From the IMG/VR virus record IMGVR_UViG_3300034073_001024, positions 1-55,227 of that record: a stretch of 55,227 nucleotides of DNA; one strand, 5' to 3'. How positions within the stretch are numbered: position 1 is the stretch's first letter; each line of letters starts with the position of its first letter. Source of the DNA: a virus. Taxonomy: Duplodnaviria > Caudoviricetes. Both the position numbers and the translations under genes were made by a program. Below, piece by piece: positions 8,484-54,200 of this stretch. Below the pieces are notes generated by a model. It made no database searches, was not told the DNA's origin, and saw only the letters and a list, made by a program, of their open reading frames with translations.

Positions 8484-9181
8484 GTATCTTCACTTATACA
8501 CCAGATCGTCCGGCCACAGAAAGCTCTAGCCCGCGGACACGAATTACGCGATTTGGCACTGCAGAACACCGCGCAACATTTGGTATCAATCCATTTCGTG
8601 ATACATGGAACGTAAGTTTTAGCAATCGCAGCATTGATGACATCAGTGAAATACATGCATTTTTGAGCGATAGCGACGGCCGCGCATCATTTACGTGGAC
8701 GACACCATTTGATGAGACTGCACAGTTTGTATGCAGCGAATGGACAGCAAAGGTTGAATCTTGCAACTATCGCACGATAGAAGCTGAATTCGAACTGCGT
8801 TATGACGCAGGAACAGAAGGCATTGCGGCGCCAGCTGGTGATGCGATAACGTTTATTTGGATTCCAGATTTTACAGCCGACCTGCGATATAAAACCAATG
8901 CGCAAACGATGCAACTTGGTGATGGCTATACGCAACGCTTTAAGTTTGGCTTAAATGCACAAGAGGAAGGGTGGTCATTGCAATTCCGCAATCGCACCAA
9001 TGCTGAACGCAACGCGATTCGTGCATTCCTTAGGCAAGCATGTGGGCGCACTGCATTCAACTGGACTGATCCGCTGTCTGGTATTACTGGCAGATATGTA
9101 TGCGCTGAATGGAGCGCAACATACAATAACCATAACAACAATGACCTGCAGATGACGCTGCGGAGGGTATTTGAACCATGA
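8480..9181 (+). CDS. Distal tail protein (gpM-like), two tandem domains
   Basis: Two copies of F.W.PD...G.N...W...F.NR...I.AFL...G..F.WT.P...C.EW. Confidence 0.8.
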   Translation: MSIFTYTPDRPATESSSPRTRITRFGTAEHRATFGINPFRDTWNVSFSNRSIDDISEIHAFLSDSDGRASFTWTTPFDETAQFVCSEWTAKVESCNYRTIEAEFELRYDAGTEGIAAPAGDAITFIWIPDFTADLRYKTNAQTMQLGDGYTQRFKFGLNAQEEGWSLQFRNRTNAERNAIRAFLRQACGRTAFNWTDPLSGITGRYVCAEWSATYNNHNNNDLQMTLRRVFEP

Positions 9182-10398
9182 GCAGCGAGCTTCTGCGAGG
9201 CGAATCACTTGCATCGCCCGGCACGTTGTTAGCGCCGAGCGGGCACTATCGCCTGCAGATGCAAAACGATGGCAACCTTGTCATCTATGATCGCTTTGGT
9301 GTTGCAAGATGGGCAACAAATACAGACGGCAATGGGCCGAGCACGCTAACACACCAACTTGATTCAAACATTGTCGTTAGGCGCAATAGCGATAACTTAA
9401 TTACCTATGCGTCAAATACATATCTAGGAGGCGCCGGCAATCTTGGCAGCCTTGTTTCCAGCAGCCTAAAGCTACAGGATGACGGCAACCTTGTCCTGCG
9501 CACTGAAGATGGCGAAGCGATATGGGCGAGCAATACAGCATCGCCGTCGTTTATACCACCAATTGCGATCACATCAGAACTGCAAGAAGTTGCACCAAGT
9601 GCAATTATTGAGCTGTTTGAGATTGAGCTAAATGCTGCGCAGCATGGCGTTAATGACACCTACCGTTTCCATGCTGGCAGCAACCTTGAGCTGAATGGTG
9701 ATGTGATCTGGAACGGCAATAGCTATTTGCGGTTTCCAGTTGAAGCGGATGGTTTTGAATACAGCGGCAATGGCCAGTTGCCACGGCCGACAATTCGGAT
9801 CAGTAATATCCTCAGCACCATCACAGCGCTACTGCTGACGCTACCGGATGGACTGGAGGGTGCTAAGGTAACGCGGATCCGCACGTTAGCGCGATACCTT
9901 GATGCCGTCAATTTTCCGCCAATTGTTGATGGGCTGCTGACGCAAAACGATGACCAGATCATCACGCAAGCAGGCGACTTACTGCTATCAACAAGCCCCG
10001 GCACGATTAACCCGCTGAATACACAGCAGTTTGATCCGATTACAACGCAACTCGGCCAGTTGATTTTGATCTCCGACCCACCGGATGGTATTGAGGCATC
10101 ACCCGATCCAACGGCTGAATTTCCGCGCGAGATCTATTTCGTTGATCGTAAGGTTGTCGAGAATCGCGACCTAGTGGAATTTGAGCTAGCGGCTGCATTT
10201 GACCTTGCAGGCATCCGCGCACCAAAGCGTCAGTGCATCGCTAACGTCTGCCAGTGGGTGTATAAGTCGGCAGAGTGTGGATACACTGGTGGATTGCCAA
10301 CATGCGATAAGACATTGGATGCGTGCAAAGCGCATTTTGGCGACAATGCAGAGCTGCCGTATGGCAGCTTCCCAGGTATCGGAGCATATACGACATGA
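9178..10398 (+). CDS. Minor tail protein gpL-like with N-terminal bulb-type (B) lectin domain
   Basis: QNDGNLVIY / QDDGNLVLR repeats in aa 1-120; IELFEI...[19 protein letters not shown]; C-terminal 4-Cys CQWVY...CGY...CDK...C. Confidence 0.85.
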
Positions 10399-23516: not shown

Positions 23517-23601
23517 CTTGCCATTCCTGGCGGTGATCTTTGCACATACCAGCCACGCAAACGCGCCATGCATCACCGCAGCGCTGGATAGTTGGTTCCA
23601 A
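23434..23601 (-). CDS. Small hypothetical protein (55 aa, TTG start)
   Basis: MEPTIQRCGDAWRVCVAGMCKDHRQEWQARVFYHQM...; overlaps the sigma 3' end and the HNH 3' end. Confidence 0.35.
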   Translation of the reverse strand: MEPTIQRCGDAWRVCVAGMCKDHRQEWQARVFYHQMIESSALQPAHDPEGTTPAP

Positions 23602-24475
23602 GTGGTGTGCCCTCCATCGGATCTTTTAAGAGCATCTTCAACCTATCAATGCCGCGCTTGCTTGCGCCTTCCAGCGTCTGCTTAGATACGTTGTACTGCT
23701 GCTCCAGTTCCCGCCACGGTACTGGGTTACGGCTATACCGTGCAGCGATCACATCACGCGTGCGTTCATCTAGGTAGGCATCGCAATATTGACGGATGAT
23801 GTCTAGTTGCCAGTCGTTCTCCGGATCATAGGTATTCGGATCAGCGATCAGATCCATCAGTGCCGAGTGATCCTCGCAGCCTTGCGCTGGTTTATCAAGG
23901 CTTGATACCTTATACGACTGCAACAACGTTTGCGATATTGCAGTGGGTTCCATATCAAGAATGCTCGCAAGATCTTGCAATGTTGCTGTGCGGCCATGTT
24001 CACGGCTGAATTGCTCAGCAGTCTTATGCAGTTTGATCAGTAGATCATGCACGCCAACTGGCAACCTGATGATCGGGTCATATTGCACCAATGCGCGGCC
24101 AATCGCCTGACGAATCCACCAGTAGGCATAAGTTGAAAACTTATAGCCGCGTGTGCAATCAAACAGCTCCACCGCACGCGCAAGGCCCATGTTGCCCTCC
24201 TGAATGATGTCCATCATCTCCAGCGTTTGCGTTGCGCGGCGGCGATATTTACGCGCGATATGCACTACCAGCTGCAGATTGGATTGAATAAACCGCTGCC
24301 GTGCGCGTTCACCACTGCGCAGCTCGCGGCGTTCTTCAGTGGTCAGTGGTCTGTCGTAATCCTTAAGTTCCCGCCAGCGTTGCACGCGGCGCCCAAGCTG
24401 TATTTCTTGCTGCGGTGTGAGCAGTGGATACCGGGCGATACTGTTGAGGTAGTCGCTAACGAGATCAGTTGACAT
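23573..24475 (-). CDS. RpoD/SigA-family sigma factor (cyanobacterial group-2-like)
   Basis: Region 1.2 YLNSIARYPLLTPQQEIQL; region 2 NLQLVV, DIIQEGNMGL.RAVELFD..RGYKFSTYAYWWIRQAI. Confidence 0.93.
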   Translation of the reverse strand: MSTDLVSDYLNSIARYPLLTPQQEIQLGRRVQRWRELKDYDRPLTTEERRELRSGERARQRFIQSNLQLVVHIARKYRRRATQTLEMMDIIQEGNMGLARAVELFDCTRGYKFSTYAYWWIRQAIGRALVQYDPIIRLPVGVHDLLIKLHKTAEQFSREHGRTATLQDLASILDMEPTAISQTLLQSYKVSSLDKPAQGCEDHSALMDLIADPNTYDPENDWQLDIIRQYCDAYLDERTRDVIAARYSRNPVPWRELEQQYNVSKQTLEGASKRGIDRLKMLLKDPMEGTPLGTNYPALR

Positions 24476-27778: not shown

Positions 27779-27991
27779 TCAAGGATTCAGTGGAATGATG
27801 CCGTGCGTCTGCTCAAAAGCAAGCACAGCGGATAGTGCATACCGCACACGCTTTTCACCAGCTGGTGTTGCAATGCGCGGTAGCTCATAATGCGGAGGAC
27901 CGTTCCCCCGCGAACGCTGGGATTTGATCGTGGATGGCTTGAGGCCCCAGCGCGCTGCAAGCTGTTCGGTGGTGAGATACGGTTCAGTCAT
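27779..27991 (-). CDS. Excisionase/AlpA-like HTH protein
   Basis: YLTTEQLAARWGLKPSTI...R.RG.GP...VRY. Confidence 0.75.
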   Translation of the reverse strand: MTEPYLTTEQLAARWGLKPSTIKSQRSRGNGPPHYELPRIATPAGEKRVRYALSAVLAFEQTHGIIPLNP

Positions 27992-28778
27992 CAGCAAATG
28001 GATCCTCCTCCGGCACTTCAGGATGCAGTGTTGCTTCGCGTTCCATCGCAAGCGTGCTCAGCTCGTCATATTGCTCAGGGCTGAGCTGCGACTGCCGCGC
28101 CCGCATCCGTTCGTTCACTTCCGCCAGCTTCTCCAGTGTGTCCGCCTTGGCGATAGCAGCCTTGCCGGCTTGGAACAGCTTGGCATCACCGGCCGGTTGG
28201 GCGGGCAATGCAGCGGGTGCAGGTGGCTGAGTGGTGACAGTGACGGGTTCTACCGTCTCGGATTGCTCCATCTCGTCGGTGGTGTAAACACCGCTGAGAT
28301 CAGCAGGGAACGCCTTACGTAGCGCCAATGCCTCGGAGCATTTGGCGATCATTGCGGCACCCATCTTGTTCCACAAGCCTTGACCGGCGTTGTAGTCAGC
28401 AAACCGCGCCACACCAACGAACGGGCGTGATGCACCACGGCGGTAGATGATGGTCTTGGCAGCTGCAGGTGGCTTGGAATCAAGCCATACATCACGCCAT
28501 TCGCCATCAGCGCCGCACCAGAATGTTTCGGAGCCATCAAGCTGGCCGGTGCGTTCAGCGATGCTGCGCAGGCCGTCGATGCCGGCTTGGATGGTCATCT
28601 TGCCGCCGTTGCCGCCGCGCTTGATGGCATAGATCTGTTTCGAGAACGGATCCAGCCCAGTGCGTTGGCACGCATAGGCAAACAGTCGCAGTTCATCCTG
28701 ACTGCAGCCCGGCGCAATGGTGCTGCTGATCAGTTGCGTTTGTTCTGGTGTCCAGTGGGTTAAAGCGGAGGAGGTCAT
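27984..28778 (-). CDS. bet: Single-strand annealing protein (Bet/RecT family)
   Basis: ELRLF...CQRTGLDPFSKQIY, IDGLRSIAERTG, MIAKCSEALALRKAFP...GVYTTDEM. Confidence 0.9.
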   Translation of the reverse strand: MTSSALTHWTPEQTQLISSTIAPGCSQDELRLFAYACQRTGLDPFSKQIYAIKRGGNGGKMTIQAGIDGLRSIAERTGQLDGSETFWCGADGEWRDVWLDSKPPAAAKTIIYRRGASRPFVGVARFADYNAGQGLWNKMGAAMIAKCSEALALRKAFPADLSGVYTTDEMEQSETVEPVTVTTQPPAPAALPAQPAGDAKLFQAGKAAIAKADTLEKLAEVNERMRARQSQLSPEQYDELSTLAMEREATLHPEVPEEDPFADD

Positions 28779-29573
28779 TTAGAAATCATCAGAGGTGAGA
28801 ACAGTGGAATTAGGGTTGAGCGCCCACTTCGGCAGGCTCAGCGTTTGCACGTCATCGCCATAGCCTGGCCACTCATTTGTGGCGCGGCAATCGGCGATCA
28901 CGCGCATATCACGCTGCCGCAGTTCATTGCCAAGCTGCAGCGCTTCGGCGTCAAGTTCATACACCGCAACCGGATGCGGGTATGCCTTCTCAACCGCAAT
29001 GAAAAAGAACCGCTCAGCGCCAAGGCCGCTCAGGTAGTGGGACGCCTGCACATGATAGCGGAAGGTTGCCACCGATTTGGCGAAGCCACGCGGTGATGCG
29101 TCGGTGGTGGTTTTGAGATCCACCACGGCGCTGCCATTGAGCCAGTCCGGCCGGCACTTGCAGCGCAGGCCGGTATCAAGATCATCCCACCAGAAGGACT
29201 GCTCAGCTTGCCCGTGGCGCAGCAGTTCCGCTGCTGCTTGGTGGCTGCGTACAGCGCCGGCCATTGCCAGCGCCAGCTCCATGTCGCTGCCGGTGACAGC
29301 TTCAATGCCAGCAGCAGCCATCTCGGCGGCTTGCTCCTTGCCGGCCTTGGTGTTACGCGGTGCGCAGATGCCATAGCGCTTGCTCAACTCATCGGGCTCC
29401 AGCACGGCGCAATGCACCAGTGAGCCCAGCCTCATCACAGCAGTCGGCTCCGGCCGCTGCCGCTGTGGATCCAGGAAGCGGCTCCAGTAGTGGTATGGGC
29501 TCTGCGCGACGGCGTGGAGGTGGCTAGCGCTGATCGCCGGATCAGCGTGATACTGCTCGTTGGTGATGGTCAT
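28779..29573 (-). CDS. RecE/ExoVIII-like PD-(D/E)XK exonuclease (DUF3799)
   Basis: YHA..AISAS.L, LGSLVH..VLEP, CKCRPDW...VDLKTT, YHVQ..HY. Confidence 0.88.
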   Translation of the reverse strand: MTITNEQYHADPAISASHLHAVAQSPYHYWSRFLDPQRQRPEPTAVMRLGSLVHCAVLEPDELSKRYGICAPRNTKAGKEQAAEMAAAGIEAVTGSDMELALAMAGAVRSHQAAAELLRHGQAEQSFWWDDLDTGLRCKCRPDWLNGSAVVDLKTTTDASPRGFAKSVATFRYHVQASHYLSGLGAERFFFIAVEKAYPHPVAVYELDAEALQLGNELRQRDMRVIADCRATNEWPGYGDDVQTLSLPKWALNPNSTVLTSDDF

Positions 29574-29776
29574 TCTTTCGGGCTCCATTCGTCGCACCAG
29601 TCAGTTGAGGCAACACTGGGCCAGTGGCTGCGATCCTCTCCAGTGGGTTGAGGTGGATGACAGTGGCACTCGTGGCGAGAAATTTCTCTTGCGAAATATG
29701 ATTGCTCAAAAGACTTGCGCAGCACGTGGTATCGACAGTTGCCGCACTGCTGTTCGTCAAGCGGGGGGTAGGTCAT
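29570..29776 (-). CDS. Small 4-Cys protein (HiPIP-like pattern)
   Basis: CGNCRY...ECHCHPP...WPSV...DWCDEW. Confidence 0.6.
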   Translation of the reverse strand: MTYPPLDEQQCGNCRYHVLRKSFEQSYFAREISRHECHCHPPQPTGEDRSHWPSVASTDWCDEWSPKE

Positions 29777-49904: not shown

Positions 49905-51431
49905 ATGGGACTCCGCACGCGACTGTTTAAGGCACTGGGCTTTGAGCCAATCCGCAGGCAGCGGCGCGCGTATCAAGGTGCACGCGTCAGTCGGCTGACC
50001 GCTGATTGGGTCACCAGTGGCACCAGCGCTGATGCGGAGATCAAGTCAAGCATTAAGACACTGCGCAACCGCGCAAGACAGCTGTGCAGGGACAATGATT
50101 ACGCCCGCCAAGCATTACGCAGCATTCAGAATAATGTGATCGGCCAAGGCATCAAGCACCAACCGCAGGTGCGGATGCAACGCGGTGGTAAGTTGGATGA
50201 AGCGCTCAATGCGCGCATCACTGATGCATGGCGCAAGTGGAGCCACAAGAGCCGGTGTGATGTACGCGGGATTCTTGGCTTCCATGATATGGAACGCCTG
50301 CTGTGCCGCAGCCTGGCGGAGTCTGGCGAGGTATTTGTACGACTGATCCGCAGGCCATTTGGCGATTCACGCGTGCCATTTGCACTGCAGGTGCTTGAGG
50401 CTGATTATTTAATCGATGATGATGTGCCGATGGCAGCAGCTGGTAATACAGTGCGTATGGGCATTGAAGTAGATGAATTTGAGCGGCCTGCTGCTTACCA
50501 CTTTTATACAACCCACCCCGGCGACACCCACCAAGGCTATCAACGCAATAATCGCAACCGCATTCGTGTGCCGGCCGAGGATGTTATCCACTTGTTCCTA
50601 CCCGAACGTCCTGGGCAGTCGCGCGGTGTGACGTGGTTTGCGTCGGCTTTGATGCGGCTGCACATGCTGCAGGGTTACGAGGAAGCCGAGGTAGTGCGCG
50701 CTCGCGCCAGTAGTGCACTGATGGGTTTCATCCAATCACCCGAAGGTGAACTGGTTGGTGATGAGGTATATGAAGGTGACCGCGTTAGTGAGTTTACGCC
50801 TGGTGTATTCAAGTACCTTGCACCTGGTGAATCTGTCACAGTACCGGATCTCAACGCACCAGACGGGCAACTGGAACCGTTCACGCGATCAATGTTGCGC
50901 GCTGTTGCAGCTGGCATTGGCACCAGCTTTGAAAGCATCAGCAAGAACTTCTCCGAAAGTAACTACAGCAGCAGCCGACTCAGCCTGCTTGAGGAGCGTG
51001 ATACGTATCGGGTGCTGCAGCGGTATTTTGTTGAGAATTTCCATCAGCAAGTCTTTGAAGCATGGCTTGAGATGGCAGTGCTGAGCGGTGAACTCGACCT
51101 GCCGGGGTATGAGATGAATCCAGACCGCTACCGCGCCAGCAGATGGATACCACGCAGCTGGGAGTGGGTGGACCCGCAGAAGGAGGTCGGAGCGTATAAA
51201 GATGCTGTGCGGTGCGGGTTTAAGACACTTGGTGATGTGATCAGCGCGCAAGGCGGCGATCTTGAAGAAACACTGACTGCCAGACAGGCTGAACTTGCAA
51301 TGCTGGATGAGCGTAATATTGTGACAGATACTGACCCGAGTGAGGTGAGCGTCAATGGCTCGGCGCAGCCGGACCCTGTGCCGTTTCCTGATACGCAACC
51401 ACCGGAGGTGAGCGATGGACAGCAATCGTGA
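49905..51431 (+). CDS. Portal protein (lambda gpB family)
   Basis: LRNRARQL.RDN, RPGQSRGV, NYSSSRLSLLE, WVDPQKE. Confidence 0.95.
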   Translation: MGLRTRLFKALGFEPIRRQRRAYQGARVSRLTADWVTSGTSADAEIKSSIKTLRNRARQLCRDNDYARQALRSIQNNVIGQGIKHQPQVRMQRGGKLDEALNARITDAWRKWSHKSRCDVRGILGFHDMERLLCRSLAESGEVFVRLIRRPFGDSRVPFALQVLEADYLIDDDVPMAAAGNTVRMGIEVDEFERPAAYHFYTTHPGDTHQGYQRNNRNRIRVPAEDVIHLFLPERPGQSRGVTWFASALMRLHMLQGYEEAEVVRARASSALMGFIQSPEGELVGDEVYEGDRVSEFTPGVFKYLAPGESVTVPDLNAPDGQLEPFTRSMLRAVAAGIGTSFESISKNFSESNYSSSRLSLLEERDTYRVLQRYFVENFHQQVFEAWLEMAVLSGELDLPGYEMNPDRYRASRWIPRSWEWVDPQKEVGAYKDAVRCGFKTLGDVISAQGGDLEETLTARQAELAMLDERNIVTDTDPSEVSVNGSAQPDPVPFPDTQPPEVSDGQQS

Positions 51432-53979
51432 ATTGACGCCTGACTTAAGTGCAACACAAGCACTCGTGTATGAGGCGCTTGAAGATGTAACCGATGACAT
51501 CGGTCAGTTTGGGCAAGATGCCGGCCCGCATGGCGCGCATTATATGGATGCAAGTCCATTCGCCGATAAGGGTGTGGTGTGCTCAAATTGTGCGTTTTAC
51601 GCCGGACCGCGTGCGTGTGAAATCGTCAGCGGCGACATCGCACCGGAAGGCATTTGTAAGTTCTGGATCATCCCGGAACGGCTGATGATTGAATCACCGG
51701 AGGCTGCAACCGGCCGGCCGTATCCAAATGAACATGCCGCACGGCTGAAAGATCCAGCGCAGTATGACCGCTTGCGGCGACGCAACGATGCTGGCGGCAA
51801 AGGCGTTGACTTTATCTTTGGCATCAAGGCCGGCCAGCCGGTTGAATTGCAAGCTGTTCGATTCCGCTCTGCGCAGTTCACTGCAGCCGAGGCACGCAAA
51901 TGGCTGAGTGATCGTGATTACAGCCCAATTGAGTTTGAAGAAGCTACGGGTGATCGTAGACTTGTGGAAAATGTAAGCAGACAAATGGAGGCCGGTGATT
52001 TTGTCGAATGGGATTCATCTGGTGGTATGGCACGCGGCCGGATTGATCGCATCGTGACGGAGGGCAGCATTGATGTACCGGGATCCAGCGTAACGATCAA
52101 CGCTAGCGAAGATGATCCTGCTGCATTGATCACGGTGTACCAGGAATCTGACAACGGGTGGGAAGCTTCTGATGTAAAGGTTGGCCATCGCGTATCAACG
52201 CTGAAAAAGATCCCAGCGCTGCGTTTCATGGAAGGCAAGCGGTATCACCGCAGCGAGGCAACGCGGTTTGATGCGGTCGAGGATCGAATTTACGAATTTC
52301 CATTCAGCTCTGAATATCCCGTGCAGCGGTACTTCGGCAATGAAGTGCTGAACCATGATGCACAAGCTGCTGATCTTAGCCGCTTGAATGATGGTGCACC
52401 GCTGCTGTTTAACCATGATCCCGATAAGGTGATTGGTGTTGTTGAGCGCGCGTATATTGATGACAAGAAACGTCGCGGTTACGCGCGTGTGCGGTTCAGC
52501 CGCAATGCATTTGCGCAGGAAATCCTGAGCGATGTTAAGGATGGCATTCTCAGGAATGTCTCCTTTGGTTATTCCATCGACAAGATGGAAGAACGCAGCG
52601 GTGATTTTATTGCTACTGCGTGGTCACCTTTTGAGGTGTCGCTGGTTTCAATCCCGGCCGATCCGGGTGTCGGAATCGGCCGGTCTCTTGAGACCGAACA
52701 AGCTGCTCCGGCAGCACCAAACCCTGATCCCATTTCTGAAATGGAAAACGCTACCCCTGATCTGGCGGTGGTGCGAGCCGAAGCCGCTGAGGCCGAACGC
52801 TCCCGCATCGCTGGTATCAATGCACTGTGCGATAAGCACAACATGGCTGATCTTGGCCGCCAGCTGATTGAATCCGGCCGTTCAATCGATGAGGCTCGCG
52901 CGGCAGTTCTGGAGCAAATCTCTGCCAAACCCATGGAACAGATCAAGACTGCCGACATCACCTCTAACGATGTTGGCCTTTCCGATAAGGAAACCCGTTC
53001 GTTCAGCTTCGCTCGTGCGCTGAACTATCTGGCTAACCCCAGTGATGCTAATGCACGCCGCGCCGCTGAATTTGAGATTGAAGTCGGCAAGGCTGCTGCT
53101 CAAAAATACGAGCGCTCCTCGAATGGCATCGTGATCCCTAACGAGGTGCTGCGTCGTGATCTGGTGGTTGGTACGCCGACCGCTGGCGGCAACCTTGTGG
53201 CTGATGAACTGCTCGCTGGTAGCTTCATCGACCTGCTGCGCAACCGCCTGGCGCTGGCCCAGGCTGGAGTGACCATGCTGACCGGCCTGCAAGGCAACAT
53301 CAGCATCCCCCGTCAGACTTCTGCCGCTACTGCTTACTGGGTTGGTGAAAACACTTCCCCGACCGAAAGCCAGCAGGCGATCGACCAGGTGAACATGACG
53401 CCAAAGACTGTGGGCGCCTATGTGGATTACAGCCGTCGACTGCTGCTGCAGTCCAGCATCGACGTGGAAGGCATGATCCGCAGTGATCTTGCTCGCGTGA
53501 TTGCTCTTGAACTTGACCGCGCTGCGATCTACGGCACTGGCTCCAGCAATCAACCGCTTGGACTTGCCAATACCACCGGCATCGGCAGCCAGACCATTAC
53601 CAGCTTCGGCACCTTTGCTGAATATATCGGCATGGAAACCGATGTGGCAGCCGCTAATGCCGATGCTGGCAGCCTGCGTTATATCATCAACGCATCCGCC
53701 CGCGGTGCACTGAAGAGCACCGAGAAAGCTGCCAACACCGGCATGTTTGTGTTTGAGGATGGTGAAATCAATGGCTACCCTGCCATTGTTTCCAACCAGC
53801 TGCAGAACAATGATGCCCTGTTTGGCGACTTCTCCATGCTGATCATGGGCATGTGGTCGGGCCTGGATCTGACCGTTGATCCGTATGCTGGCGCTACCGC
53901 CGGCACCGTCCGCGTGATTGCTCTGCAGGATGTGGATGTTGCCGTGAAGCAACCTAGCGCCTTCTGCCTGGGCACCTGA
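51415..53979 (+). CDS. Polyprotein: HiPIP-like, unknown, TUDOR/DUF2945-like, HK97 prohead protease and HK97-fold major capsid domains
   Basis: CSNC..C..GIC.FW; GDFVEWDSSGG; LLFNHD, VSFGY, EVSLVSIPAD; AGGNLV, AYWVGE, FGDFS. Confidence 0.9.
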   Translation: MDSNRELTPDLSATQALVYEALEDVTDDIGQFGQDAGPHGAHYMDASPFADKGVVCSNCAFYAGPRACEIVSGDIAPEGICKFWIIPERLMIESPEAATGRPYPNEHAARLKDPAQYDRLRRRNDAGGKGVDFIFGIKAGQPVELQAVRFRSAQFTAAEARKWLSDRDYSPIEFEEATGDRRLVENVSRQMEAGDFVEWDSSGGMARGRIDRIVTEGSIDVPGSSVTINASEDDPAALITVYQESDNGWEASDVKVGHRVSTLKKIPALRFMEGKRYHRSEATRFDAVEDRIYEFPFSSEYPVQRYFGNEVLNHDAQAADLSRLNDGAPLLFNHDPDKVIGVVERAYIDDKKRRGYARVRFSRNAFAQEILSDVKDGILRNVSFGYSIDKMEERSGDFIATAWSPFEVSLVSIPADPGVGIGRSLETEQAAPAAPNPDPISEMENATPDLAVVRAEAAEAERSRIAGINALCDKHNMADLGRQLIESGRSIDEARAAVLEQISAKPMEQIKTADITSNDVGLSDKETRSFSFARALNYLANPSDANARRAAEFEIEVGKAAAQKYERSSNGIVIPNEVLRRDLVVGTPTAGGNLVADELLAGSFIDLLRNRLALAQAGVTMLTGLQGNISIPRQTSAATAYWVGENTSPTESQQAIDQVNMTPKTVGAYVDYSRRLLLQSSIDVEGMIRSDLARVIALELDRAAIYGTGSSNQPLGLANTTGIGSQTITSFGTFAEYIGMETDVAAANADAGSLRYIINASARGALKSTEKAANTGMFVFEDGEINGYPAIVSNQLQNNDALFGDFSMLIMGMWSGLDLTVDPYAGATAGTVRVIALQDVDVAVKQPSAFCLGT

Positions 53980-53981
53980 TC

Positions 53982-54200
53982 ATGAAGGTTGAGATCCTGC
54001 GACCCGTCATGATCTCAGGGGAGCCGGTTTCGGCCGGCTCTTTCGTTGAGGTCAGCCAAGCTGACGGCAATTTGTTGATCGGCAGCCATAAGGCTATTGC
54101 CGTTGCTGCTAAACCTGTCCCTGTTGAGGTGACAGAAGAACCGAAGCCAAAGCGTCGCGCGAAGGCTGCGGTTGAATGCACACTTCCCAGTGAGGATTGA
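53982..54200 (+). CDS. Small head-associated protein
   Basis: MKVEILRPVMISGE; directly after capsid. Confidence 0.65.
   Translation: MKVEILRPVMISGEPVSAGSFVEVSQADGNLLIGSHKAIAVAAKPVPVEVTEEPKPKRRAKAAVECTLPSED

What the first reader, a model, noticed from the sequence alone, without database searches (positions are those of the whole stretch)
51415..52230. HiPIP-like Fe-S domain and other accessory domains fused ahead of the protease-capsid polyprotein
Seen: one 854-aa ORF. Residues ~40-85 read AHYMDASP...CSNCAFY....ACEIVSGDIAPEGICKFW, followed by a PYPNEHAARL domain, a TUDOR/DUF2945-like domain, the HK97 protease, a scaffold-like helix (possible internal ATG at 52741) and the capsid. Established: small HiPIPs follow Y...CxxC..F...C..V.G.I...G.C..(F/W) and bind 4Fe-4S. 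Inference: if every capsid precursor carries it, assembly would sequester much iron or be redox-gated in a photosynthetic host; if an internal start makes most capsid protein, only protease-bearing copies carry it.
Basis: partly seen in the sequence, partly recalled or inferred. Interest (0 to 1): 0.75.

Follow-up and report, generated by a model that had tools for sequence, protein, structure and literature searches.

The report
HiPIP-fold four-cysteine module in phage head polyprotein
The capsid gene of this uncultivated aquatic phage begins with a small domain that looks like a bacterial iron-sulfur electron carrier, and the same portable domain is attached to head-building and toxin-like proteins in hundreds of other uncultivated phages, which suggests that phage heads carry an unrecognised metal-cluster cargo.

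Summary
One 854-aa ORF (51415..53979, +) reads: helix plus four-Cys module (aa ~10-95), PYPNEHAARL module, Hva1/Tudor barrel, S78 prohead protease, linker and scaffold-like helix, HK97-type capsid protein.

The four-Cys module scores below Pfam's HIPIP threshold (13.9 and 16.7 bits against 22). Other evidence supports a HiPIP fold:
- It matches Rhodothermus HiPIP 3h31 with all four Cys and a Tyr aligned (E 1.5e-4).
- It folds confidently (pLDDT 91).

The module is portable. There are 518 cluster representatives, and 150 of the best 150 keep the four Cys. At least 591 IMG/VR contigs encode it, but only one record in the phage GenBank collection does. By my count, 47 of 123 scanned representatives join it to prohead proteases. 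Others join it to capsid, portal, ADP-ribosyltransferase or zeta-toxin domains.

Best reading: a probable [4Fe-4S] head-interior cargo module, tethered to the protease-scaffold-capsid precursor. Cofactor binding, the module's fate after maturation and the proposed internal start remain untested. The "photosynthetic host" claim has no direct support. I found no paper describing the module.

The parts
51404..51410 (+). Shine-Dalgarno-like GGAGGTG ahead of the full-length start codon at 51415
   Evidence: Read directly from the upstream sequence printed.
51415..53979 (+). One 854-aa ORF: accessory modules, prohead protease, scaffold-like segment and major capsid protein
   Evidence: phrog_617 'major head protein' covers aa 286-854 (E 1.8e-164). 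NCBIfam scaf_prot_MCP2 covers 289-553 at 185 bits, below its 525-bit cut-off.
51442..51699 (+). Mobile module of about 85 aa (aa 10-95): helix 13-29 plus a HiPIP-fold four-Cys core (C56, C59, C68, C81; invariant H42, Y43, P48, V71, K82, W84)
51703..51969 (+). PYPNEHAARL module (aa ~97-185), a small alpha/beta domain of unknown function
   Evidence: AF2 model 2 shows strands and helix at high pLDDT. Weak BRX likeness only: Pfam E 0.0017 below cut-off, and Foldseek 6l0v TMt 0.66 at E 0.11. The same module is found in 'major capsid protein' genes of Synechococcus phages S-CBS1/S-CBS3 and Roseobacter phages CRP-8xx.
51994..52212 (+). Hva1/DUF2945 Tudor-like beta-barrel (aa ~194-266)
   Evidence: Pfam PF11160 at 34.6 bits, over its cut-off of 24.1. 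AF2 gives an all-beta barrel. Weak Foldseek rows point to BAH, SAWADEE and KOW barrels.
52342..52671 (+). HK97-type prohead serine protease (Peptidase_S78) domain
   Evidence: Pfam PF04586 at aa 310-419, E 2.7e-10. TIGR01543 scores 39.1 bits, below its cut-off of 59.
52741..53094 (+). Conserved Met443 followed by a scaffold/delta-domain-like helical segment; possible but unproven internal start
   Evidence: ATG at 52741 with no SD-like word upstream. The Met is kept in 100 of 100 relatives with the motif. None of 21 upstream contexts has an SD-like word.
53185..53976 (+). HK97-fold major capsid protein domain
   Evidence: Pfam PF05065 at aa 591-853, E 2e-45. TIGR01554 at 540-853, 129 bits.
49905..51431 (+). 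Lambda-family portal gene, overlapping the start of the polyprotein ORF
   Evidence: Pfam Phage_portal_2, E 9.7e-111.

Best explanation
Residues ~10-95 are a phage-specific, divergent branch of the HiPIP fold. Four invariant cysteines sit in a hydrophobic, aromatic-rich core and most likely hold a [4Fe-4S] cluster. The module is a portable 'head cargo' domain. In this phage it sits with two other small modules (PYPNEHAARL and Tudor-like) on the N-terminal side of the prohead protease, which is itself fused to the scaffold-like segment and the capsid protein.

The N-terminal parts of HK97-type capsid precursors face the inside of the procapsid. The modules are therefore carried into the head interior by the assembling shell and should be cut free when the protease fires.

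Shown: the fold likeness, the conservation of the four Cys, the mobility of the module and its partners, and the intact reading frame.

Inferred: cluster binding, interior location, release by the protease, and what the freed module then does. It may stay as an internal or ejected protein, or act only during assembly.
For: Sequence: phmmer of aa 1-100 against PDB gives R. marinus HiPIP 3h31 at E 1.5e-4, with Y43 and all four Cys aligned. The A1 profile gives 3h31 at 7.4e-5, then HiPIP 1hpi (0.1) and PioC (0.17). Of the 30 A1 members, 16 hit Pfam HIPIP at E<=0.1, and no other family is hit by more than 2. Two of 123 relatives pass the HIPIP cut-off.

Conservation: the four Cys are kept in 150 of 150 best representatives. 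C56, C59, C68, C81, H42, Y43, K82 and W84 are invariant in A1.

Mobility and partners (my count over 123 scanned): 34 Peptidase_S78, 9 ClpP/S49 and 4 XkdF-type proteases, 3 capsid, 1 portal, 5 ADP-ribosyltransferase, 5 zeta toxin. The module lies on either side of the protease. A free-standing 89-aa copy lies between neck and major tail genes.

Precedents: proteins packaged in phage heads and injected, such as T4 Alt and MuF fusions (PMC5512222, passages seen). A [4Fe-4S] cluster in a virion protein, lambda gpL (PMC10721106, passages seen).

Against: No experiment shows any metal. A four-Cys site could bind zinc instead.

This protein carries no effector enzyme, so the 'cargo' reading rests on relatives.

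A cluster-bearing domain would have to unfold to pass through a tail tube, which argues against ejection in the holo form (inference).

If all capsid subunits were made full length, the roughly 590 N-terminal residues per subunit would crowd the head (inference from general capsid geometry, recalled). So either most copies start internally or the modules are degraded or leave. Neither is shown.
Confidence: 0.55

Rival explanations
1. One reading: every capsid subunit is made with the Fe-S domain, so head assembly consumes a large share of host iron or is gated by redox state, in a photosynthetic host.
For: The phage has a single capsid gene, and its full-length start has a strong GGAGGTG ribosome-binding word. 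The ATG at 52741 has none, nor do 21 of 21 related upstream contexts. TerL is closest to Synechococcus siphoviruses S-CBS1 and S-CBS3.
Against: The host is unknown. TerL identity is only 50%. The virus is an uncultivated record seen in many habitats, including subsurface and soil. The module occurs mostly on stand-alone proteases, which are present in far fewer copies than capsid protein, and on toxin-type proteins. Its role therefore cannot depend on being part of every capsid subunit. Many genes of this phage lack an SD word, so its absence at 52741 says little.
Confidence: 0.15
2. The module has a HiPIP-like shape but binds zinc or forms disulfides. It would then serve only as a rigid structural or protein-binding knob, for example to anchor cargo to the head interior or portal.
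For: Four-Cys sites often bind zinc. The score is below the Pfam HIPIP cut-off. Single A1 members gave faint hits to zinc-finger families: 1 of 30 each for zf-RING_13 and Znf_XAF1_N. The module is joined to very different partners, as an adaptor would be.
Confidence: 0.2
3. It is an auxiliary metabolic gene. After cleavage, the free HiPIP-like protein acts as a soluble electron carrier in host photosynthetic, respiratory or iron-oxidation chains.
For: The closest solved relatives (HiPIPs, PioC) are electron carriers. NCBIfam gave a faint hit to iron oxidase Iro at 23 bits against a cut-off of 100.
Against: The N-terminus is acidic and shows no twin-arginine or hydrophobic export signal (sequence), whereas HiPIPs work in the periplasm (established knowledge, recalled). 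The module is nearly always part of virion-module proteins. It was found only on MAG contigs, never in isolate genomes: 11 loci among one genome per 185,579 species.
Confidence: 0.05

Closest known systems
High-potential iron-sulfur proteins (Pfam PF01355), especially R. marinus HiPIP (3h31) and the short HiPIP PioC (6xyv)
   Same: The order and spacing of the four Cys, the Tyr before the first Cys, the aromatic residue after the last Cys, and the predicted fold.
   Different: The score is below the family cut-off. There is an extra N-terminal helix (aa 13-29) that belongs to the conserved unit. The module has no export signal. It is a domain inside phage structural polyproteins and is not a free periplasmic carrier. 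Its cofactor is unverified.
Prohead protease / major capsid protein fusion proteins (NCBIfam NF045541; phrog_617, phrog_4523)
   Same: An S78 protease, a scaffold-like segment and an HK97-type capsid domain in one ORF, placed after a lambda-type portal gene.
   Different: About 285 extra N-terminal residues form three modules. NF045541 matched only aa 289-553, at 185 bits against a cut-off of 525. Of the 120 listed relatives, 101 carry a further ~100-aa N-terminal module that this phage lacks.
Polyvalent proteins and packaged head proteins of phages (Iyer et al. 2017, PMC5512222; T4 Alt, MuF fusions)
   Same: Strings of unrelated small domains encoded among virion genes. Relatives of the module are joined to ADP-ribosyltransferase and zeta-toxin domains, the kinds of effector that paper describes (passages seen).
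   Different: That paper does not contain the words iron, HiPIP, Fe-S or Tudor (0 occurrences each). Here the carrier is the protease-capsid precursor, not MuF. This protein has no effector enzyme.
Lambda gpL tail-tip [4Fe-4S] domain
   Same: It is a precedent for an iron-sulfur cluster built into a virion protein whose function is still unknown (PMC10721106, passages seen). This phage also has a gpL-like gene with a Cys-rich C-terminus.
   Different: It is a different protein in a different part of the virion (tail tip versus head precursor). No similarity between the two was seen or tested directly.

Membership tests
HiPIP (Pfam PF01355) | Four cluster-ligand cysteines in the order C-x2-C ... 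C ... C, followed by an aromatic residue | tested here: met
   C56, C59, C68 and C81 align with the four Cys of 3h31. They are kept in 150 of 150 representatives.
HiPIP (Pfam PF01355) | Score over the curated family threshold (22 bits) | tested here: not met
   13.9 bits in the whole protein and 16.7 bits for aa 1-100. 2 of 123 relatives pass. 16 of 30 A1 members hit at E<=0.1, all below the cut-off.
HiPIP (Pfam PF01355) | HiPIP fold | tested here: met
HiPIP (Pfam PF01355) | Conserved Tyr shielding the cluster, N-terminal to the first Cys | tested here: met
   Y43 aligns with the Tyr of 3h31 and is invariant in A1. Its role as a shield is recalled knowledge.
HiPIP (Pfam PF01355) | Small free protein exported to the periplasm as an electron carrier | tested here: not met
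   The module is part of an 854-aa cytoplasmic structural polyprotein. Its N-terminus is acidic, with no twin-arginine or hydrophobic signal (read directly).
HiPIP (Pfam PF01355) | Binds [4Fe-4S] cycling 3+/2+ at high potential | not testable with these tools
   This needs expression followed by UV-vis, EPR and metal analysis.
Prohead protease / MCP fusion (NF045541) | S78 protease and HK97 capsid domains in one ORF | tested here: met
   Pfam PF04586 at 310-419 and PF05065 at 591-853. phrog_617 covers 286-854.
Prohead protease / MCP fusion (NF045541) | Score over the NCBIfam cut-off (525 bits) | tested here: not met
   185.1 bits, covering aa 289-553 only.
Phage polyvalent proteins (Iyer et al. 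2017) | Several unrelated domains in one polypeptide encoded among virion or packaging genes | tested here: met
   At least six modules lie between the portal and head-tail genes.
Phage polyvalent proteins (Iyer et al. 2017) | Carries effector enzyme domains aimed at the host | tested here: not met
   No such domain is present in this protein. Relatives of the module carry ART (5) or zeta toxin (5) among the 123 scanned.
Phage polyvalent proteins (Iyer et al. 2017) | Packaged in the head and delivered with the DNA | not testable with these tools
   This needs virion proteomics and infection assays.

The most novel reading that the evidence does not exclude
A HiPIP-type, oxygen-tolerant [4Fe-4S] module is a widespread and so far undescribed class of phage head cargo. 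It would be loaded into procapsids by fusion to proteases, capsid or portal proteins, and linked in relatives to ADP-ribosyltransferase and zeta-toxin effectors. Many aquatic phage heads would then carry redox-active iron, tens to hundreds of clusters per particle. That would bear on virion iron quotas and would point to a redox or iron checkpoint in head maturation or early infection.
Probability: 0.3. Interest if true: 0.8.

Novelty: new variant of a known kind. Interest (0 to 1): 0.62.

Why it matters
Iron-sulfur clusters in virions are known only from tail-tip proteins such as lambda gpL, and their role there is still unexplained (PMC10721106, passages seen). A HiPIP-fold module inside head precursors would be a second, independent case.

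The module is abundant in uncultivated aquatic phages. There are 518 cluster representatives, at least 591 IMG/VR contigs, and one ESM Atlas cluster of 2,078 mostly viral members that was named automatically after the HiPIP profile. It was found in only one of 50,697 phage GenBank records, which may explain why it has gone unnoticed.

If it binds iron, it adds a head-borne term to the iron budget of phage particles. The 'Ferrojan Horse' idea raises that budget for tails (I saw only the search listing and abstract start of 10.1101/674382; the original paper is recalled).

The module also marks a set of modules shared between capsid precursors and toxin-bearing phage proteins. That gives a handle on how cargo is loaded into heads.

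Tried and rejected

PHROGs found no family for aa 1-100.

The earlier-findings index had nothing by place or by sequence.

Literature searches found no description of the module:
- 'polyvalent proteins' + HiPIP: 0 papers.
- 'high potential iron-sulfur protein' + 'prohead protease': 0 papers.
- HiPIP + phage + capsid: 1 unrelated NMR review.
- HiPIP + bacteriophage: 16 papers, 15 listed, none on this topic by title or abstract start.
- A search for work on protease-capsid fusions and delta domains gave nothing usable.

The library lacks most subscription journals, so 'not in print' holds only for these searches.

Foldseek on the PYPNEHAARL plus Tudor model gave only weak rows, with a best E of 0.019. 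I name no fold for the first of these modules beyond a faint BRX likeness.

A look for the ~100-aa N-terminal module of relatives elsewhere in the window found nothing better than E 3.5.

I considered a complex prediction (module against protease, delta segment or portal). I did not run it, because I do not claim a specific binding partner.

Host assignment could not be tested.
Full report
**What is there**

The window is a complete, uncultivated virus record of 55,227 bases with direct terminal repeats. It is organised like a lambda-type siphovirus. The head genes run small terminase, gpA-type large terminase, head-tail joining protein, lambda-family portal, then the ORF in question. Tail genes follow across the record's ends.

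The ORF 51415..53979 (+) encodes 854 residues.

Pfam places three domains over their cut-offs:
- Hva1_TUDOR at aa 194-240 (34.6 bits).
- Peptidase_S78 at 310-419.
- Phage_capsid at 591-853.

PHROG 617 ('major head protein') covers aa 286-854. Everything before about residue 285 is therefore extra to the usual protease-capsid fusion.

**Is the four-Cys stretch a HiPIP?**

By Pfam's own rule it is not. It scores 13.9 bits in the whole protein and 16.7 bits for aa 1-100, against a cut-off of 22. Other evidence agrees in pointing to a HiPIP.

Sequence evidence:
- phmmer of aa 1-100 against all PDB sequences finds Rhodothermus marinus HiPIP 3h31 at E 1.5e-4. Y43 and all four cysteines (C56, C59, C68, C81) are aligned.
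- A profile of 30 family members (A1) gives 3h31 at 7.4e-5. The next two hits are also HiPIPs, though not significant: 1hpi at 0.1 and PioC at 0.17. PioC aligns without a gap between the second and third Cys.
- 16 of the 30 A1 members hit Pfam HIPIP at E<=0.1. No other family is hit by more than two members.

Fold evidence:
- AlphaFold2 with A1 gives a confident model (pLDDT 91.0, pTM 0.80). It has one helix (aa 13-29) packed on a coil-rich core.
- The first 18 Foldseek rows against PDB are all HiPIP entries. The E-values are weak (best 1.3e-3), as expected for a 60-residue core with little secondary structure.

**Conservation and spread**

A full HMMER scan of 1.84 billion cluster representatives with aa 1-100 found 518 proteins at E<=1e-3 and 279 at E<=1e-10. 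The match covers query residues ~10-95 in proteins of 76 to 1,203 residues. All 150 listed hits keep C-x2-C, then Cys3, then Cys4 followed by two residues and an aromatic, almost always C-K-[F/L]-W.

In A1 the invariant columns are G30, G40, H42, Y43, P48, C56, C59, C68, V71, C81, K82 and W84.

Occurrence in sequence collections:
- It found only 11 loci in one genome per 185,579 prokaryote species. All 11 are on MAG contigs, and one of them is a weak partial match.
- In 50,697 GenBank phage records the module was found once. It lies at the C-terminus of an 851-aa 'capsid maturation protease' of Actinomycetia phage DSL-LC01, with the same Cys spacing.
- The ESM Atlas holds a cluster of 2,078 members, 90% viral, that was automatically named after the HiPIP profile. 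Automatic pipelines have therefore flagged it.
- My searches found no paper that describes it. The main survey of multi-domain phage cargo proteins does not contain the words iron, HiPIP, Fe-S or Tudor.

**What it is attached to**

I scanned 123 of the 150 representatives against Pfam; the other 27 were left out for the size limit. By my count:

| Partner domain | Representatives (of 123) |
|---|---|
| Peptidase_S78 | 34 |
| ClpP or S49 protease | 9 |
| XkdF-type protease | 4 |
| Capsid domain | 3 |
| Portal | 1 |
| ADP-ribosyltransferase | 5 |
| Zeta-toxin kinase | 5 |
| DUF5824 | 9 |
| DUF3721 | 6 |
| Tudor | 4 |
| No Pfam family | 46 |

Some representatives are probably fragments of longer genes.

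The module lies before or after the protease. A free-standing 89-aa version sits between neck genes and the major tail protein.

Among the 120 listed full-length relatives of this ORF, 65 carry the module. The other 55 lack the four-Cys motif, and most of them keep the PYPNEHAARL motif. In two relatives the order of the modules is swapped. A further ~100-aa N-terminal module is present in 101 of the 120 but is absent from this phage. It also occurs in two zeta-toxin proteins.

The N-terminal region is thus a cassette of shuffled modules. It is shared with toxin-bearing proteins of the kind described as packaged 'polyvalent' proteins (PMC5512222, passages seen).

**Frame and start**

The full-length start has a strong GGAGGTG word.

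Independent assemblies keep one frame:
- An 854-aa cluster at 98% identity is seen on 8 contigs.
- Contigs from two other studies bridge the accessory modules, the protease and part of the capsid domain with substitutions only and 0 gaps.
- One low-depth contig in a third run has a +1/-1 pair four bases apart.

The proposed internal start is undecided. M443 is kept in 100 of the 100 relatives that have the following PDL...VVRA motif; 21 of the 121 proteins examined (the query and its 120 listed relatives) lack that motif. However, none of 21 distinct upstream contexts has an SD-like word, and this phage often does without one.

**The other modules**

A second model (aa 95-290, pLDDT 82) shows two separate folded units joined by low-confidence linkers.
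- The second unit is an SH3/Tudor-like barrel, in line with Pfam.
- The first unit (PYPNEHAARL) has only a faint BRX likeness. It recurs in the capsid genes of Synechococcus phages S-CBS1 and S-CBS3 and of Roseobacter phages CRP-8xx.

**How it most likely works**

In HK97-type assembly, the N-terminal delta domain and the protease lie inside the procapsid and are removed by the protease (established knowledge, recalled). A cassette placed N-terminal to the protease in the same chain must therefore be drawn inside the shell, and it can be freed by cleavage.

I read the HiPIP-like module as head-interior cargo that probably holds a [4Fe-4S] cluster. A HiPIP-type pocket would suit a cluster that has to survive outside cells in oxic water (inference).

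What the module does afterwards is open. It could be an internal protein, an ejected protein that must refold, or a cofactor that acts only during assembly.

If every subunit were full length, a T=7 shell would enclose about 415 copies of roughly 590 extra residues (recalled geometry, inference). That is hard to reconcile with a 55-kb genome. I therefore expect either an internal start or degradation of the extra residues.

**Host and habitat**

TerL is closest to Synechococcus siphoviruses, at only 50% identity. Near-identical DNA is held by runs labelled subsurface, soil, freshwater, estuary, lagoon and marine, from 10 studies. I laid four of these runs. A photosynthetic host is possible but not shown.

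**Verdict**

The HiPIP reading is well supported at the level of fold and ligand pattern, but it fails the curated family threshold and the cofactor is untested.

The wider finding is that this is a mobile module of uncultivated phage head proteins. It is a new variant of a known fold in a new setting.

Noticed in passing
window 9178-10398 (+): The gpL-like minor tail protein (phrog_18) ends in a Cys-rich stretch with five Cys in about 35 residues. This resembles the iron-binding C-terminal domain described for lambda gpL, so the virion may carry a second metal cluster in its tail tip. Its N-terminal half shows repeated Q-x-D-G-N-L-V motifs that I recall from bulb-type lectins.
   Followed up: partly
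relatives P0003-P0121, first ~105 residues; absent from the window: A conserved ~100-aa N-terminal module (motif AWFARHEVDK ... GYPSPGRVAWAAWGG) heads 101 of 120 listed relatives. It also occurs in two zeta-toxin proteins, P0222 and P0238. This phage lacks it, and tblastn finds nothing in the window. No Pfam family was listed for it.
   Followed up: partly
P0139, P0144, P0162, P0195 (and P0218), N-termini: The ADP-ribosyltransferase proteins that carry the four-Cys module share another short N-terminal module (MPYTV...GC.GFAVVK...GGCH...AIAHM). The zeta-toxin proteins share a different one (LSDAELE.LHKSLH...AHH). Both are unnamed.
   Followed up: no
window 51300-54000: Near-identical sequence is held by metagenome runs from 10 studies labelled subsurface, soil, freshwater, estuary, lagoon and marine. 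This is an unusually wide spread for one phage lineage (four runs laid).
   Followed up: partly
window 52322-52326: One low-depth contig of run X8 has a 1-base insertion and a 1-base deletion four bases apart inside the protease region. It is either a local frame-restoring pair or an assembly error (table 4).
   Followed up: no
window 23573-24475 (-), 27984-29597 (-): The phage encodes an RNA polymerase sigma factor (phrog_351) and a RecT / exonuclease VIII recombination pair.
   Followed up: no
L002 (Actinomycetia phage DSL-LC01) 1-4814: Three consecutive genes are annotated 'capsid maturation protease'. The middle one (851 aa) has only a weak S78 match (19.9 bits) and ends with the four-Cys module.
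   Followed up: partly
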